In this document: positions 38,717-44,745 of the stretch, in pieces
Layout of the letters: each line of letters starts with the position of its first letter
Numbering within the stretch: position 1 is the first letter of the stretch
Source of the DNA: the human T2T-CHM13v2.0 reference genome, Homo sapiens
Strand: one strand, 5' to 3'
Assembly (NCBI RefSeq): GCF_009914755.1
Contig: NC_060946.1
Length of the DNA: 64,000 nt
The notes under the pieces: generated by a model
Databases searched by the model: none
What the model was told of the DNA's origin: nothing
What the model saw: the letters and a program-made list of their open reading frames with translations, nothing else
Position numbers and translations under genes: made by a program

Positions 38717-40932
38717 GCTGAGCTGGTGCGTACCTTAAATAAACAATCCTCCTGTTCTCCATATCAGTCTCTCTAGTCCTCAGTTCCCTGCAACATTTTT
38801 GGCGACCAAGAAGGGACCGGAGATGGCAAGTTTACTGTCTCCTTTGCCTCTAGGGGTTAGAGCCCCAGGCATCAGGAGACCTGTGACCCCAGGTGCCACC
38901 AGGAGAACTTCAGCCCAGACAGCAGATCGGCTTTCACGTGACCCGGCGCCCCTACCCAGCAGCGCAACAGAACCCTAAGAAATGCTCCAGGATGATTCCA
39001 GAAACAGTGCACTTCAAGAACTGCAGTAAAGTTTTAAGGCCCAAGGCAGGACCCATCCCATAAGGATGAAGGAGGAGCCTGATCACCTCCCGAGTTGTGC
39101 CTAATAGTCCAACCCAGAGAGGCTAAAGGCGGTGAGAAAGGCTCGCCAATTCAGATGAAACCCACACCCCAACAAACACAAGATGTGAGACCGGCTTGCT
39201 AACTCAGTTAAGAAAAAGAAACTAGAGATGGTGAGAGTGGCTTGCCACCCCAGTTAGGTACACAGGAACTAGGAGTAGAGAAGTGTGTGAATGAAAAGGC
39301 CTAATTAAGCTCATCAGCCGTGAAGTAAGGAGTCACAGATCTCTTAGTGTAGACTGTGTGCTCCGAACAAAGTGTAAGGCCGACTGCAAATAGTAGCGAT
39401 CTGCATACGGCTAATAAGAACTGCCCTACAGCTCAGAGTTGTATCAGGAATAAGGAACTCTCCAAAGCCAAGCAGCCTCTGAAAACTCCCATAATAGTAG
39501 ATGGTATACTAGGCTGAAATGAGAGGAAAGAGTGTGCTGTGCCGTAAAAGAAAGAATAGGAAGAAAGTCATCAACACTTACCCCGTTAGAGTGAATGTTA
39601 CAGAACTTTAAGAAAGGTTTAGCAGAGGACTATGGAGTTAAGCTAACCCCACAGAGGTTGAGAACTCTCTGTGAATTAGAATGGCCTTCTTTTAGTGTTA
39701 GATGGACGACCGAAGGAACTATAGATAAGGAAATAATTGACTGTGTATTTAAGGTGGTGACAAGAGTCAGAGGACACCCAAGGCATCCAGATTAATTTCC
39801 TTATATTGATTGATGGTTAAATATAGCACAGACAAGACCAGCCTGGATCCAGCCCTATTTAGCAGTTTATTGTGAAACACGTGTGTCCTGAGCCCAGCCA
39901 AGAGTGAAAGTAAGAGCAGCTTCACTGGCAGACACAGAGTTAAAGAAGTCCCAAAGAGAGCAAGAAAAGTCAGTTTTGCAGGAGCTGCCAGAAAGAAGAG
40001 ATTCGTCCTCCACATGTCCCAGCCTACCCCCCTTTACAGAGACCAACAGCCCCCCAGGAGCCAGACTTAAAGCCAGCATGACCCAAGTTTCACCCCGAAG
40101 GGGAGGATCAGAGCCTTGAGAGGCCAGGGAAGGAAGTCAAGATATTCAAGCAGGCTGTCTCAGAACTGGCGGTGTTCAAGCTCTACAAATGCCTCTCTAG
40201 GAGATGTGAGGACCCATTTATTATGATGGCCAAGGCCAAGTCCAAACAAGGCAATGGACTTTCATCAGTCAGCCCTTTTCAACCACTGATCTTTTAAACT
40301 GGAAACACCATACTCCCTCCTACACAGAGAAGCCTCAAGCTCTTATAGATCTGATGCAACCCATCTTTCTGACACACAATCCAAGCTGGCCAGACTGCCA
40401 GCAGCTCCTCCTCACATTATTTAACACTGAGGAATGCAGGAGAGTAATCCAGGAAGCTCTCCACTGACTAGAAGCCCAGGCATCAGCAGACACAGTGCAT
40501 GCTCAGGCATACACTCAAGGTCAGTTCCCAGACGCTGGCTAGGAGCCCAGGCATCAGCAGACGCATTGCATGCTCAGGCATGATGCAGACGCAGTGCATG
40601 CTCAGGCATTCACTCAAGGTCAGTTCCCAGACCAAGATCCTAACTAGGACCCAGGGGATGCAACTCAGCTTCAGCATGTGCAGAGGTACCAAGAGGCACT
40701 TCTGCAAAGGCTGAGATGATGGAAAGAGAGCCCTTAGTATAAAGAAGATTTCAGAAGTGCTTCTAGGAAGTGATGAGAGCCCTAACCAATTTTATGAAAG
40801 ATTCTGTGAGGCATACCGGCTTTCACCCTGTTTGACCCTGAGGCCACTGAATATCAGTGTATAGTGAATACGTCACTTGTAGGACAGGCCCAAAGTGATA
40901 TGAAACGAAAGCTTAAGAAGTTAGAAAGTTTT

Positions 40933-41220
40933 GGCTGGGCACGGTGGCTCACGCCTGTAATCCCAGCACTTTGGGAGGCCAAGGTAGGTGGATCACGAGG
41001 TCAGGAGTTAAAGATCAGCCTGGCCAAGATGGTGAAATCCCGTCTCTACTAAAAATACAAAAAAAAAATAGCTAGGTGTGGTGGTGGCACCTGTAATCCC
41101 AGCTAATTGGGCGGCAGAGGAAGAGAATTGCTTGAACCCAGGAGGCAGACGTTGCAGTGAGCCAAGATCGTGCCACTGCACTCCATCATGGGTGACAGAG
41201 CGAAACTCCGTCCAAAAAAA
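40933..41220 (+). mobile_element. AluS inserted in gag
   Basis: Full Alu; TSD tagaaagtttt before the Alu and after the GAA tract. Confidence 0.93.
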
Positions 41221-41427
41221 AAAGAAAAGAAGAAAGAAGAAGAAAGAAGAAAAAAAGAAGAAAAGAAGAAGAGGAAGAAGAGGAAGAAGAGGAGGAAGAA
41301 GAGGAAGAAGAGGAGGAAGAAGAGGAAGAAGAAGAAGAAGAAGAAGAAGAAGAAGAAGAAGAAGAAGAAGAAGAAGAAGAAGAAGAGGAAGAAGAGGGAG
41401 AAGGAAGAAGAAGAAAGAAAAAGAAGA
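41214..41427. repeat. 214-nt pure purine tract with (GAA)20 core at 41325-41384
   Basis: Direct reading. Confidence 0.97.
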
Positions 41428-41839: not shown

Positions 41840-42395
41840 CCAAGCTCCTTCTCATTAAGCCTCCAAGAGCCCATCGTCATTTTAGAAGTCGAAAGCAGCA
41901 AGATTCTGCTGTATCTAGATTATAAATTTCTCGCTGATGGCTAAGCCATTATATGAAATTACAAAAAAAAAAGAGAGAGGAGAGAGAAAGAACCCCTCCT
42001 CTAAGAAACTAAACAGGAGAAGAAGCCATGCCTTCATGCCTTGTGAAAACTTGCTTATGGACTTTACTAAAATGCCCCGTGCCAGAGGCTATCAGTATAT
42101 GCTAGGGTTTATTTGCACTTTTTCAGGATAGGTTGAGACTTTCCCCACCAGGACAGAAAAAGCACAAGAAGTGACTAAAGTACTACTAAAATATATTATC
42201 CCAAGGTTTTGACAGCCTCTAACTTTAAAGTCAGACAACAGGCCAGCATTTGTAACTGAAATAGTGCAAGATTTAACAAGACTGTTAAAAATAAAATAGA
42301 AGTTACGCACAGCCTATCAGTTGCAAAGTTCAAGAAAAGTAGAAAACATGAACCAGACACTCAAGCAGCTACTGAAGAAATATTGCCAAGAGAGT
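41840..42395 (+). pseudogene. pol: Collapsed pro/pol remnants (protease start, short RT piece, integrase core)
   Basis: NFSLMAKPLYEITK (RT); LLMDFTKMP…FSG*VETFPTRTEKA…SDNRPAFV…SSRKVENMNQTLKQLL (integrase D-D-E region). Confidence 0.85.
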
Positions 42396-44210
42396 TATCA
42401 TGAGAGATCAAAGGAAGGTCCCCTCTTAAACCAAACCAGGGTCCCTCCCTTTTACCAAGAGCCTATTTCTCTGTATTTTGATGCTTGTCAGGCAGCATCA
42501 GGGGAGACCAAGACTCCCCTGTCTGTGGTAACCTACCTTTAGAAAGATACTATAGAAATGACTACAAATATGTATGCATGCCAAGAGTAACTCCAACTTG
42601 TTCCCCTAGGACCCCAGAAAAAGATTGTTGGCATTGCATATTGTAGCACCCTAGCACACAACAAAGGTCAATTATGCTTACCAAAATGCCGGTGAAACCA
42701 GATTGTGAAGCAAAAACCAGTAATCCTATGAATGTCACCATTCTAAAGCTAGACTTACCCATGTAGACTGCAGCTTACCCCATACATATGTATATACACA
42801 CATACCCAGCAATCTACCTATATGTTATCAAAAAAGAACCAAGACCCATCCAGCCCAGCAACAGTTCCAACTCTTTAAATCATTCTATAAGCATGTAGAC
42901 CAGAAGTTATCAGAACCTACTCCTTTAGCCAAAAACCTGTTTGCTTAGCTGGCTGAAAACATTGCCGGCAGCCTAGGCGTTTCGTTATGTTTGTAGAAAG
43001 ACTAACGTAGGAGACCAATGGCCTTAGGAAGCAAAAGAGTTAATGCCACAAGATAATTTAACTCTAATAGACTCTTCCCCTGAACCGATGCCCGCAAGTT
43101 CAAGTGTCTAGCTCTTAAAAACTTCTATTATCGGGAGATACTGTGTTGCTCCCTGAAGAAAGGCTTTTACAGACACAGTAGGAGAACTAACCTGCTTAGG
43201 ACAGCAATATTATAATGAAACACTAAAGAAAATTTTGTGACGAGGCAGAGATGACTCCAAAGCACCTCATCCAAATCCATTCTCCTGTTTCTCTCCTCTA
43301 AACCACACCTGGTATCAGCTTGAAGCTCCAAATACTTGGCAAGCTCCCCTTGGTCTTTATTGACATCTGTAAGCCACAGGCATATCGACAGTTGCCAGCT
43401 AAATGGACAAAGTCCTGTGTGTTTGAAACAATTAGACCATCTTTCTTCCTACTCCCACTGCAACAGGGAGAAACTTTAAGGTATCCCATCTATGATGAAG
43501 TTAGAAGAAGAAGCAAAAGAGATGCAGACATAAAAAGAGATATAGAAATAAGAAATTAGAAAGACACAGATTGGCCCCCTGAAAGAATAATTCAATACTA
43601 TAGGCCACCTACCTAGGCACAAGATAGGTCATGAGGATACTGCACTCCTATTTACATGATTAGCCACATCATAAGTTTGCAGGCAGTACTTGAAATGATC
43701 ACTAATGAAACAGCAAATGCATTAGATTTAATGGCCCAGCAAGCCACAAAAATGAAGAATGCTATTTATCAGAACAGATTAGCTTTAGACTACCTCCTAG
43801 CACAGGAAGCAGGAGTATGTGGAAAATTCAATCTAACTAATTTCTGCCTGGAAATTGATGACAATGGAAAGGCAATTATAGAAATAACTGCAAGAATGAG
43901 AGAATTACCTCATGTTCCAGTTCAAACTTGGAAAAGGTAGTCTCCAGATTCCCTCTTTGGAGGCTGGTTTTCCTCCTTCAGTGGATTCAAGACTTTAATA
44001 AGAATAGTCCTGGCCATACTAAGAGTTTGCCCAGTACTCCCTTGCCTCTTACCCCTCCTTGTTAGAAGCACTCAATCAGCTATAGAGGCAACAGTAGCTA
44101 GGCAAACTACCACTCAGCTAATGGATCTATATAAATATCAGCCTGTGCCTAAAGAAGAAAACTTGTCTCTTCAGGCAGAATTAAGTAATAGTGATGCCTT
44201 CCATTAAAGT
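42396..44210 (+). pseudogene. env: ERV3-like env remnant
   Basis: LLKTSIIG…ELTCLGQQYYNETL; furin site RRRSKR (43503-43520); immunosuppressive motif [18 protein letters not shown]; close to recalled ERV3-1 Env; multiple stops. Confidence 0.9.
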
Positions 44211-44745
44211 TCTTTTATAAAAGGCAACAAAAGGAGGAAACTGAGGCAGAAATTTAAAAATAAATATGCATTCATTCACTCCAAGAAAAGTAACAGGCAA
44301 AGCAAAGGTTAAAAAGAAAAGAACAAGTATTCCTCTGCCTAGTAGGCTCACTTCAAAGACAGTTATAACATTGTTAGAGAAGCCAAGGCCAAAGGAATAG
44401 GCTCCAGACAACCCCCACTTCCAGAGCAAAGTTAAAAGAAAAAAAGCAAGAGAGAAAGACAAATTATTTTACTGTTACTCCTTTCCTTGGCTTCTTAAGC
44501 ATGATGATGTTTTACAAATTTCTGTAGTCAGTTCTTATTTTTCTTTTGATGCAGCTACAAGGCCACTAGCTATACAAGGCCACAAGTTATGCCAAGTCAG
44601 CAGTTATGCTATAGATTACGTGACCTGTCACTGTATGATTAACTGCTTTTGTTTTGCTTCTGTAAGTTTGCTTAGAAAAGCCCCACTCAGTCTTTGTTCA
44701 ATGCTCAGCTTTTTAGATATGAATCCACTTATCCAGTGCATACCC

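What the first reader, a model, noticed from the sequence alone, without database searches (positions are those of the whole stretch)
38717..44241. ERV3-like provirus with an APOBEC3G-type GG->AG hypermutation footprint
Seen: where gammaretroviral/ERV3 proteins have conserved Trp (TGG), this copy repeatedly has stops. TAG occurs at 40645 (DPN*DP), 41690 (zinc knuckle GH*KD), 41916, 42129 (FSG*VE), 42297 (KIK*KL), 43025 (QWP*EA), 43109 (SV*LLK), 43557, 43614 and 43938; TGA before a former G occurs at 43154 and 43632. Expected Gly codons read AGA/AGG (SSRKVE, DNRPAF, YYRP, QDRS), and the presumed gag start reads ATA GGA at 39556. Established: APOBEC3G deaminates minus-strand CC, giving plus-strand GG->AG; CpG decay does not turn TGG into TAG. 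Inference: the virus was edited during reverse transcription and integrated already inactivated, so this is a fossil record of ancestral primate APOBEC3G activity against a class I ERV. Several Trp codons survive, so editing was partial. Ancestral residues are from memory.
Basis: partly seen in the sequence, partly recalled or inferred. Interest (0 to 1): 0.8.

Follow-up and report, generated by a model that had tools for sequence, protein, structure and literature searches.

The report
APOBEC3G-edited ERV3-like fossil provirus
This is a broken, roughly 30-million-year-old retrovirus copy in human chromosome 22 whose DNA carries the clear scar of the host antiviral enzyme APOBEC3G, a kind of scar already known from other endogenous retroviruses.

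Summary
All 13 quoted codons are at the stated places. At each of the 12 stops TGG is the commonest or joint commonest codon in sibling copies.

I counted changes against natural sibling copies from the same genome.
- The target lost 40% of GG sites to AG (31.2 of 77.6 per sibling pair, 78 pairs).
- The mirror change CC to CT is 4.6%. G-to-A before A, C or T is 6-9%.
- The motif order is GGG 76%, GGA 37%, GGT 36%, GGC 15%.
- A separate MAFFT alignment agrees: 21 of 21 pairs, p at most 3e-5.

Editing is 30-46% in every part of the provirus. It is absent from three Alus inside or touching it. Three segmental-duplicate copies share 95-98% of the edits. Changes after the duplication are strand-symmetric.

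So this is APOBEC3G-type editing of the reverse transcript, fixed before the duplications.

The element is ERV3-related, not ERV3 itself. Its pol is deleted, an Alu interrupts gag, and the 5' LTR is lost. It extends to about 45832. The mechanism is well known, so this is a new example, not new biology.

The parts
38717..38795 (+). Remnant (last ~79 nt) of the 5' LTR; the rest is lost upstream, where an Alu now lies (38416-38716)
   Evidence: Matches the LTR ends of siblings and the end of the 3' LTR (38718-38795 aligns with L015 and L043).
38800..38817 (+). Primer binding site, Arg/Trp-tRNA type
   Evidence: Read directly. 17 of 18 bases equal the PBS string quoted in PMC4724089 (passage), which says R and W types are hard to tell apart.
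38818..39555 (+). Leader; GG to AG 46% of GG sites (this count covers 38718-39555, LTR end plus leader)
   Evidence: region 'LTRend+leader' (91 sibling pairs).
39556..40924 (+). gag, 5' part (MA, p12, start of CA); start codon lost; a local repeat of roughly 50-100 nt near 40474-40632
   Evidence: Pfam Gag_MA (E 1.4e-14) and Gag_p30 (E 1.1e-21) in frame 1. Overlapping HSPs. GG to AG 30%.
40925..41435 (+). Alu plus GAA-rich simple repeat inserted in gag after integration; not edited
   Evidence: Present in the duplicated copies. GG to AG 0.6 of 12.5 sites per pair, 317 pairs of other Alus.
41436..41900 (+). gag, 3' part, with the NC zinc knuckle (stop at 41690)
41901..42034 (+). Short leftovers of protease and reverse transcriptase between two internal deletions
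   Evidence: 11 loci align without a break across 41535-42391. Fuller loci have 1.7 to 7.8 kb more here. The PR/RT naming rests on recalled motifs.
42035..42405 (+). Integrase core fragment (stops at 42129 and 42297)
   Evidence: Pfam rve, E 1.1e-9, frame 3.
42408..44241 (+). env: C-terminal part of SU, and TM; about 1 kb is missing at 42405/42408 relative to siblings
   Evidence: 68% (112 of 164) and 70% (88 of 126) amino-acid identity to the 604-aa frame of L018. Gap of about 1 kb against L006, L016, L017 and L029.
44242..44745 (+). 3' LTR, first part (U3 side); GG to AG 39% (few sites)
   Evidence: Aligns with the 5' LTRs of siblings (L036, L044, L046, L047, L056)..
44746..45765 (+). Foreign solo LTR of an abundant 1-kb family inserted into the 3' LTR, flanked by a 5-6 nt direct repeat
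   Evidence: 40 scored matches of 611 candidates, 85-92% identical, nearly all full length. The site is empty in the chr21 and chr22a duplicates and filled in the chr14 copy.
45766..45832 (+). 3' LTR, last part
   Evidence: Same sequence as 38740-38790. An Alu follows at 45838.

Best explanation
A pol-deleted, ERV3-related gamma-like retroviral genome was reverse transcribed in a particle or cell that held a CC-specific cytidine deaminase of the APOBEC3G type. The enzyme deaminated about 40% of the CC sites, and about three quarters of the CCC sites, on the minus-strand DNA. The plus strand therefore reads GG to AG along its whole length. This destroyed the gag start and many Trp codons. The edited DNA integrated in the germ line of an early catarrhine or simian. 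It later took an Alu in gag, lost most of its 5' LTR, and was copied by segmental duplication to four acrocentric short-arm sites. A foreign solo LTR entered the 3' LTR between the first and second duplication.

Shown: the strand-specific, motif-specific excess, its confinement to proviral DNA, and that it predates the duplications.

Inferred: that it arose in one round of reverse transcription, the identity of the enzyme, and the date.
For: 1. Three-copy counts (two siblings agree, target differs; 78 pairs): GG to AG 31.2 of 77.6 sites (40%) against CC to CT 3.5 of 77.3 (4.6%). G to A before A, C or T is 6.0, 6.4 and 9.2%, like the mirror classes at 5.1, 5.0 and 7.6%.
2. Motif: GGG 76%, GGA 37%, GGT 36%, GGC 15%. 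A T at -1 gives 48% against 36-40% for A or G. This fits the APOBEC3G motifs in the abstract of PMC3909203 (listing).
3. Polarity: with one close and one distant copy as the pair (117 pairs), 34% against 5%.
4. A separate MAFFT alignment of 38718-40533: 21 of 21 pairs with p from 7e-12 to 3e-5. The target is at 0.38, the seven siblings at 0.04-0.13.
5. Simple pairwise counts against the eight best-covered siblings: GG to AG 91-121, CC to CT 11-30.
6. Without any reference: GG/CC is 0.56 (207/369) in the target and lower than the sibling's on the same columns in 18 of 19 comparisons.
7. Every region is edited at 30-46%.
8. Alus inside gag and at both edges show 5%, 3% and 9%.
9. The three duplicates share 95-98% of the edits. 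Private changes after the duplication are symmetric: target G>A 15, C>T 16, GG 2, CC 4.
10. No copy closer than 88% exists apart from the three duplicates that share the flanks.
Against: - No 5'-to-3' gradient of editing is seen (0.46, 0.30, 0.44, 0.41, 0.30, 0.39), although gradients are reported for some edited proviruses (PMC2564838 passage).
- Other copies share 6-54% of the target's GG to AG sites, and some share its stops. Not every edit is demonstrably private.
- One of the 78 pairs gives p 0.14 (3 of 13 GG sites).
- The target's total distance to its siblings is not larger than theirs to each other (median identity 0.833 against 0.80-0.84).
- The original host flanks are mostly replaced by Alus, so confinement could be tested only on Alus that may have arrived later.
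- No other primate genome was available.
Confidence: 0.88

Rival explanations
1. The edits were not made in one round. They built up over several rounds of sublethal editing, or were inherited from an already edited master copy that helper viruses kept mobilising. This is possible because this deleted form needs no reading frames of its own.
For: At least 11 loci share the same internal pol deletions, so this form multiplied in trans. Stops at the same Trp codons occur in siblings, for example 7 of 10 close copies at 43557. The C19:56.55M copy shares 54% of the target's GG to AG sites.
Against: That copy is itself GG-edited (16 of 38 GG sites). GGG sites are hit at 76%, so parallel hits are expected. 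Its sharing of the target's other private changes is ordinary (0.30, within the range 0.11-0.34 of all siblings). No copy with a different flank is closer than 88%.
Confidence: 0.08
2. The excess arose in chromosomal DNA after integration, through deaminase attack on exposed single strands or through transcription-linked strand asymmetry.
For: Clustered mutations attributed to APOBEC3G in hominid genomes are reported (PMC4864454, title and start of abstract only). The original flanks could not be tested.
Against: Editing is even over about 5.6 kb and stops at the Alus inside and beside the provirus. Changes since the duplications are strand-symmetric. Forty per cent of GG sites is at the level of retroviral hypermutation; that comparison is my inference.
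Confidence: 0.03
3. It is an artefact: the siblings gained G (AG to GG), or the alignments are biased.
For: All counts rest on alignments at about 80% identity. Pairs of siblings are not independent of one another.
Against: Distant copies, used as an outgroup, give the same result. BLAST and MAFFT alignments agree. Dinucleotide counts that need no reference agree. The same counting on the siblings gives 4-13% for most of them.
Confidence: 0.01

Closest known systems
Chimpanzee CERV1/CERV2 and rhesus RhERV2 gammaretroviral proviruses edited by APOBEC3 (PMC2564838, passages read)
   Same: Gamma-type endogenous proviruses with a GG to AG excess on the plus strand and many stops made by G to A. 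The paper attributes this to APOBEC3G acting before or during endogenisation. Different copies of one family can show GG or GA signatures, as seen here among the siblings.
   Different: Those families are a few million years old and absent from humans. This copy is human, of a family whose copies differ by about 18%, is pol-deleted, and now exists as four segmental duplicates. No gradient is seen here.
HERV-K(HML-2) proviruses hypermutated by APOBEC3G (Lee 2008; Armitage 2008: seen only as entries in the reference list of PMC2564838; content recalled)
   Same: Human endogenous proviruses with a GG to AG footprint that was fixed at integration.
   Different: Those are beta-like class II elements and much younger. 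This is a gamma-like class I element.
Genome-wide APOBEC3 signatures in human ERVs (PMC6955324, passages; PMC4866542, passages)
   Same: Both state that human ERVs show GG to AG and GA to AA biases and that some copies are hypermutated.
   Different: They give survey-level results. I found no mention of this family in the text or in the supplements that were held. This locus lies in acrocentric short-arm sequence.
ERV3-1 (HERV-R) at 7q11 (PMC5775217, passages)
   Same: A gamma-like element of the same wider group. Its env is 68-70% identical in protein to the 604-aa frame of G000 C7:66.2M, the only one of 60 fetched loci with a frame that long. The review says about 40 ERV3-like elements exist and that only the 7q11 copy keeps an env frame.
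   Different: DNA identity is only 69-75%, and about 20 other loci are nearer. That C7:66.2M is ERV3-1 rests on its position and a recalled protein length. No name came from a tool.

Membership tests
APOBEC3G-type hypermutated endogenous provirus | Plus-strand G to A far above C to T | tested here: met
   Median 51 against 19 per pair (125 pairs). Mean 47.7 against 16.8 (78 pairs).
APOBEC3G-type hypermutated endogenous provirus | Excess lies in the GG context, not GA, GC or GT | tested here: met
   40% against 6.0, 6.4 and 9.2%. Fisher test of GG against the other contexts: median p 2.5e-10, worst 0.063.
APOBEC3G-type hypermutated endogenous provirus | Wider motif: GGG and TGG favoured, C at +2 disfavoured | tested here: met
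   GGG 76%, GGC 15%, T at -1 48%, compared with the abstract of PMC3909203. The preference for T at -1 is weak.
APOBEC3G-type hypermutated endogenous provirus | Confined to reverse-transcribed viral DNA | tested here: met
   Three Alus inside or abutting the provirus show 3-9%. Unique host flanks could not be polarised.
APOBEC3G-type hypermutated endogenous provirus | Edits present from integration onward | tested here: inconclusive
   Shared by 95-98% in the three duplicates, and later changes are symmetric. Orthologues in other primates were not available.
APOBEC3G-type hypermutated endogenous provirus | Gradient of editing along the genome | tested here: not met
   30-46% in all six regions with no trend. 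The literature read reports a gradient for some copies only, so it is not strictly defining.
ERV3 / HERV-R group (HERV3 of the HERVERI supergroup) | Gamma-type Gag (MA, p30) and integrase | tested here: met
   Pfam Gag_MA, Gag_p30 and rve above their cut-offs.
ERV3 / HERV-R group (HERV3 of the HERVERI supergroup) | Arg-type primer binding site | tested here: inconclusive
   17 of 18 bases match the string that PMC4724089 says is labelled R or W. Five of the seven siblings in alignment A1 have a different PBS.
ERV3 / HERV-R group (HERV3 of the HERVERI supergroup) | Closest kinship to the ERV3-1 locus | tested here: inconclusive
   Clearly related (env 68-70% amino-acid identity), but about 20 loci are nearer (80-87% against 72-77%).
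ERV3 / HERV-R group (HERV3 of the HERVERI supergroup) | Assignment by a curated repeat library (HERV3-int / LTR4) | not testable with these tools
   No repeat library is held. The names come from Table 4 of PMC4724089.

The most novel reading that the evidence does not exclude
This old ERV3-like family keeps separate, clean records of two deaminase specificities. The target carries a pure GG footprint. One sibling carries a GA footprint, and two carry mixed ones. All lie in proviruses with private branches of about 4-9% per site. With ape and monkey telomere-to-telomere assemblies, the orthologues could date when the CC-specific (APOBEC3G-type) and TC-specific activities were each already at work in early catarrhines. 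They could also show that non-autonomous, trans-packaged genomes were edited as well.
Probability: 0.4. Interest if true: 0.45.

Novelty: new member of a known kind. Interest (0 to 1): 0.3.

Why it matters
It is a very clean, single-signature example of APOBEC3G-type lethal editing in an old class I provirus. About 40% of GG sites are edited, and the other contexts stay at background. The later history can be ordered: Alu insertion, first duplication, solo-LTR insertion, second duplication.

It could serve as a dated calibration point for the motif preference of the ancestral enzyme. It also shows that newly assembled acrocentric sequence holds such records. It does not change what is known about the mechanism.

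Tried and rejected
I worked with the 60 loci already held and asked only for tables afterwards (loci 0).
- Pfam found no env family at E up to 0.01. I showed env instead by BLASTP against the 604-aa frame of L018.
- I looked for a 5'-to-3' editing gradient and found none.
- I considered shared descent with the C19:56.55M cluster, which shares 54% of the GG to AG sites. I rejected it because other private changes are not shared more than usual and that copy is edited itself.
- Papers not held: Anwar 2013 and Andersson 2005.
- Supplements: for PMC4866542 only 307 characters were held and one file could not be searched. For PMC6955324, eight files held none of the family names searched. Those supplements may still bear on whether this family was listed.
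- Searches for hypermutation in the ERV3/HERV3 group gave nothing specific among the rows listed; 121 papers with 3 of 4 terms, 20 listed; 38 papers, 12 listed; 855 papers with 2 of 3 terms, 12 listed; the only listed row with all three terms is a HERVH review.

Rows left out of the counts:
- C19:56.44M and C19:56.51M, which are 92-93% identical to C19:56.55M.
- C1:12.65M, which is 99.9% identical to C1:12.60M.
- The second Y-chromosome copy (L050) and four further Y loci (L051-L054).
- L001 and L031, which are the window itself.
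Full report
WHAT IS THERE

The window is human T2T chr22:9176001-9240000.

Reading the sequence and aligning it to related loci of the same genome gives this layout:
- The last ~79 nt of the 5' LTR (38717-38795). 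The rest is gone and an Alu lies upstream.
- A primer binding site at 38800-38817. It matches 17 of 18 bases of the Arg/Trp-type string quoted in PMC4724089 (passage).
- The leader, then gag from 39556 (Pfam Gag_MA and Gag_p30), interrupted by an Alu plus a GAA-rich repeat at 40925-41435.
- The end of gag with the zinc knuckle.
- Two internal deletions that remove nearly all of pol and leave an integrase core (Pfam rve).
- A further ~1-kb deletion at 42405/42408, then the rest of env.
- A 3' LTR from 44242 to about 45832, split by a foreign 1-kb solo LTR (44746-45765).

The longest open frame inside the proviral sequence is 94 aa.

WHICH FAMILY

The env translation, with stops read as X, is 68% (112 of 164) and 70% (88 of 126) identical to a 604-aa open frame at G000 C7:66.2M. 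That locus is the only one of the 60 fetched loci with a frame that long. Its position, and a recalled protein length, fit ERV3-1. The ERV3 review says that only the 7q11 copy keeps an env frame and that about 40 ERV3-like elements exist (PMC5775217, passages).

In DNA the target is only 69-75% like that locus, but 80-87% like some 20 other loci. 'ERV3-like' is fair. 'ERV3' would not be. No repeat library was available to give a curated name.

THE OBSERVATION

Against natural siblings, TGG is the commonest codon at 11 of the 12 stops. At 42129 it ties with stops (3 TGG, 3 stops, 2 other of 8). The range is 3 of 8 to 18 of 20.

Seven of seven X positions inside the BLASTP blocks face W in the intact chr7 frame.

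The quoted Arg codons face GGN in 12 of 14, 5 of 11, 14 of 19 and 13 of 20 siblings. ATG stands at 39556 in 11 of 20.

THE TEST

I built no consensus. Thirty-seven copies were projected on target coordinates from BLAST alignments (5582 proviral positions; the Alu/repeat and the foreign LTR were left out). Near-duplicates were dropped, which left 19 close and 11 distant copies (the dropped rows are listed under Tried and rejected). A change was assigned to the target only where two siblings agree with each other, in base and in context, and the target differs. CpG sites were set apart.

Results:
- GG to AG is 31.2 of 77.6 sites (40%) per pair over 78 pairs. The mirror change CC to CT is 3.5 of 77.3 (4.6%).
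- G to A before A, C or T is 6.0, 6.4 and 9.2%, the same as the mirror classes.
- Fisher tests of GG against CC give a median p of 3.7e-8. The worst pair, with only 13 GG sites, gives 0.14.
- Using one close and one distant copy as the pair, which guards the direction of change, gives 34% against 5% (117 pairs).
- A separate MAFFT alignment of 38718-40533 gives 21 of 21 pairs with p between 7e-12 and 3e-5. The target is at 0.38 and the seven siblings at 0.04-0.13 when treated the same way.
- Plain pairwise counts against the eight best-covered siblings give 91-121 GG to AG against 11-30 CC to CT.
- With no reference at all, GG/CC is 0.56 (207/369) in the target. It is lower than the sibling's value on the same columns in 18 of 19 comparisons. 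The exception is a sibling that is itself edited.

THE SIGNATURE

By the base at +2, editing is GGG 76%, GGA 37%, GGT 36% and GGC 15%. A T at -1 gives 48% against 36-40% for A or G.

The abstract of PMC3909203 (listing) names GG, TGG, GGG and TGGG as APOBEC3G targets and says C at +1 or +2 is disfavoured. The GA context, which the other primate APOBEC3 enzymes prefer (PMC2564838 and PMC6955324 passages), is at background. This is a pure APOBEC3G-type footprint.

WHERE AND WHEN

Every part of the provirus is edited at 30-46% of GG sites, from the leader to the U3 side of the 3' LTR, with no gradient.

The Alu inside gag and the Alus at both edges show 5%, 3% and 9% under the same counting against 26-28 other Alus of the window.

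Three copies on chr14, chr21 and elsewhere on chr22 share the flanks and so are segmental duplicates. They carry 95-98% of the target's GG to AG changes.

The duplicates differ from the target by 4.1% (chr14) and 7.1% (chr21, chr22a). The last two differ from each other by 0.4%.

Changes private to the target since the split from the chr14 copy are symmetric: G>A 15, C>T 16, GG 2, CC 4.

The target's private branch, without G to A, is 5.9% per site, inside the family's range of 4-9%. It is therefore as old as its siblings. With a recalled neutral rate of 1 to 2.2e-9 per site per year, half of 7.1% puts the first duplication roughly 16-35 million years ago and the integration before that. This fits the 30-40 million years given for ERV3 (PMC5775217). 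These dates are inference.

EXPLANATION

The best reading is minus-strand deamination during the reverse transcription that made this provirus, followed by germ-line integration of an already ruined genome (confidence 0.88).

What is shown is the strand- and motif-specific excess, its restriction to viral DNA, and that it predates the duplications. That it happened in a single round, and that the enzyme was the ancestral APOBEC3G, are inferences.

The main rival (0.08) is stepwise editing, or inheritance from an edited master.
- For it: at least 11 loci share the target's pol deletions, so this form was mobilised in trans and needed no frames. Some stops recur in siblings, for example 7 of 10 close copies at 43557. 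One copy shares 54% of the target's edits.
- Against it: that copy is itself GG-edited (16 of 38). It shares other private changes no more than usual (0.30, within the range 0.11-0.34). Hot GGG sites are expected to be hit twice.

Chromosomal editing after integration (0.03) and artefact (0.01) fare worse. The reasons are given under Rival explanations.

COMPARISON WITH WHAT IS KNOWN

GG to AG hypermutation of endogenous gammaretroviruses in chimpanzee and macaque, with stops made by G to A, is described in PMC2564838 (passages). That paper cites the parallel HERV-K reports.

PMC6955324 (passages) states that human ERVs show GG to AG or GA to AA biases and that some are hypermutated. PMC4866542 (passages) screens many genomes for the same signal.

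I found nothing on this locus or on hypermutation in the ERV3/HERV3 group among the rows listed by searches. Two key papers were not held, and the supplements held gave nothing. The verdict is therefore a new member of a known kind.

LIMITS

- Pairs of siblings are not independent of one another.
- Alignments are at about 80% identity.
- Host flanks could not be polarised.
- No other primate genome and no curated repeat model were at hand.

Noticed in passing
Related loci: G000 C19:22.66M (L014, L046), C19:52.95M (L012, L036), C23:135.24M (L060), C19:56.55M (L015, L024): Other copies of the family are hypermutated with different signatures. Medians per pair: C19:22.66M has GG 28 and GA 42. C19:52.95M has GA 23, and on the MAFFT alignment GA to AA 0.22 against TC to TT 0.05. 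C23:135.24M has GG 17 and GA 18. C19:56.55M has GG 16 of 38. At least two deaminase specificities therefore acted on one family.
   Followed up: partly
window 41535-42391 and 11 loci listed (for example G000 C9:145.29M, C4:8.42M, C14:17.90M, C6:87.08M): The two internal pol deletions of the target are shared without a break by at least 11 other loci. Fuller copies have 1.7-7.8 kb more. A non-autonomous deleted form multiplied, presumably with helper virus.
   Followed up: partly
window 44746-45765: A solo LTR of an abundant ~1-kb family (611 candidates, 40 scored, 85-92% identical) is inserted in the 3' LTR with a 5-6 nt direct repeat. It is present in the chr14 duplicate, and the site is empty in the chr21 and chr22a duplicates. 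It therefore entered between the first and the second duplication. The family was not named.
   Followed up: partly
G000 C14:4.47M, C21:2.45M, C22:4.21M and the window: There are four copies of the whole locus on acrocentric short arms. Target to chr14 differ by 4.1%, these two to chr21/chr22a by 7.1-7.4%, and chr21 to chr22a by only 0.4%. The last figure points to a recent exchange between 21p and 22p.
   Followed up: partly
alignment A1, columns 101-125 (window 38797-38820): Two different primer-binding-site types occur among close siblings. The target, C19:52.95M and C11:68.87M have the Arg/Trp type. Five others have another string. PMC1224870 (passage) notes alternative PBSs in ERV3.
   Followed up: no
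window 40474-40632: A local repeat of roughly 50-100 nt lies in gag. It is seen as overlapping alignments to the siblings and to the chr21/chr22a duplicates.
   Followed up: no
window 46250-47000: A G+C-rich stretch (0.65) starts right after the provirus and the Alu, at the annotated start of lncRNA LOC124908468 (46231). Whether the LTR or the Alu contributes to that promoter was not examined.
   Followed up: no
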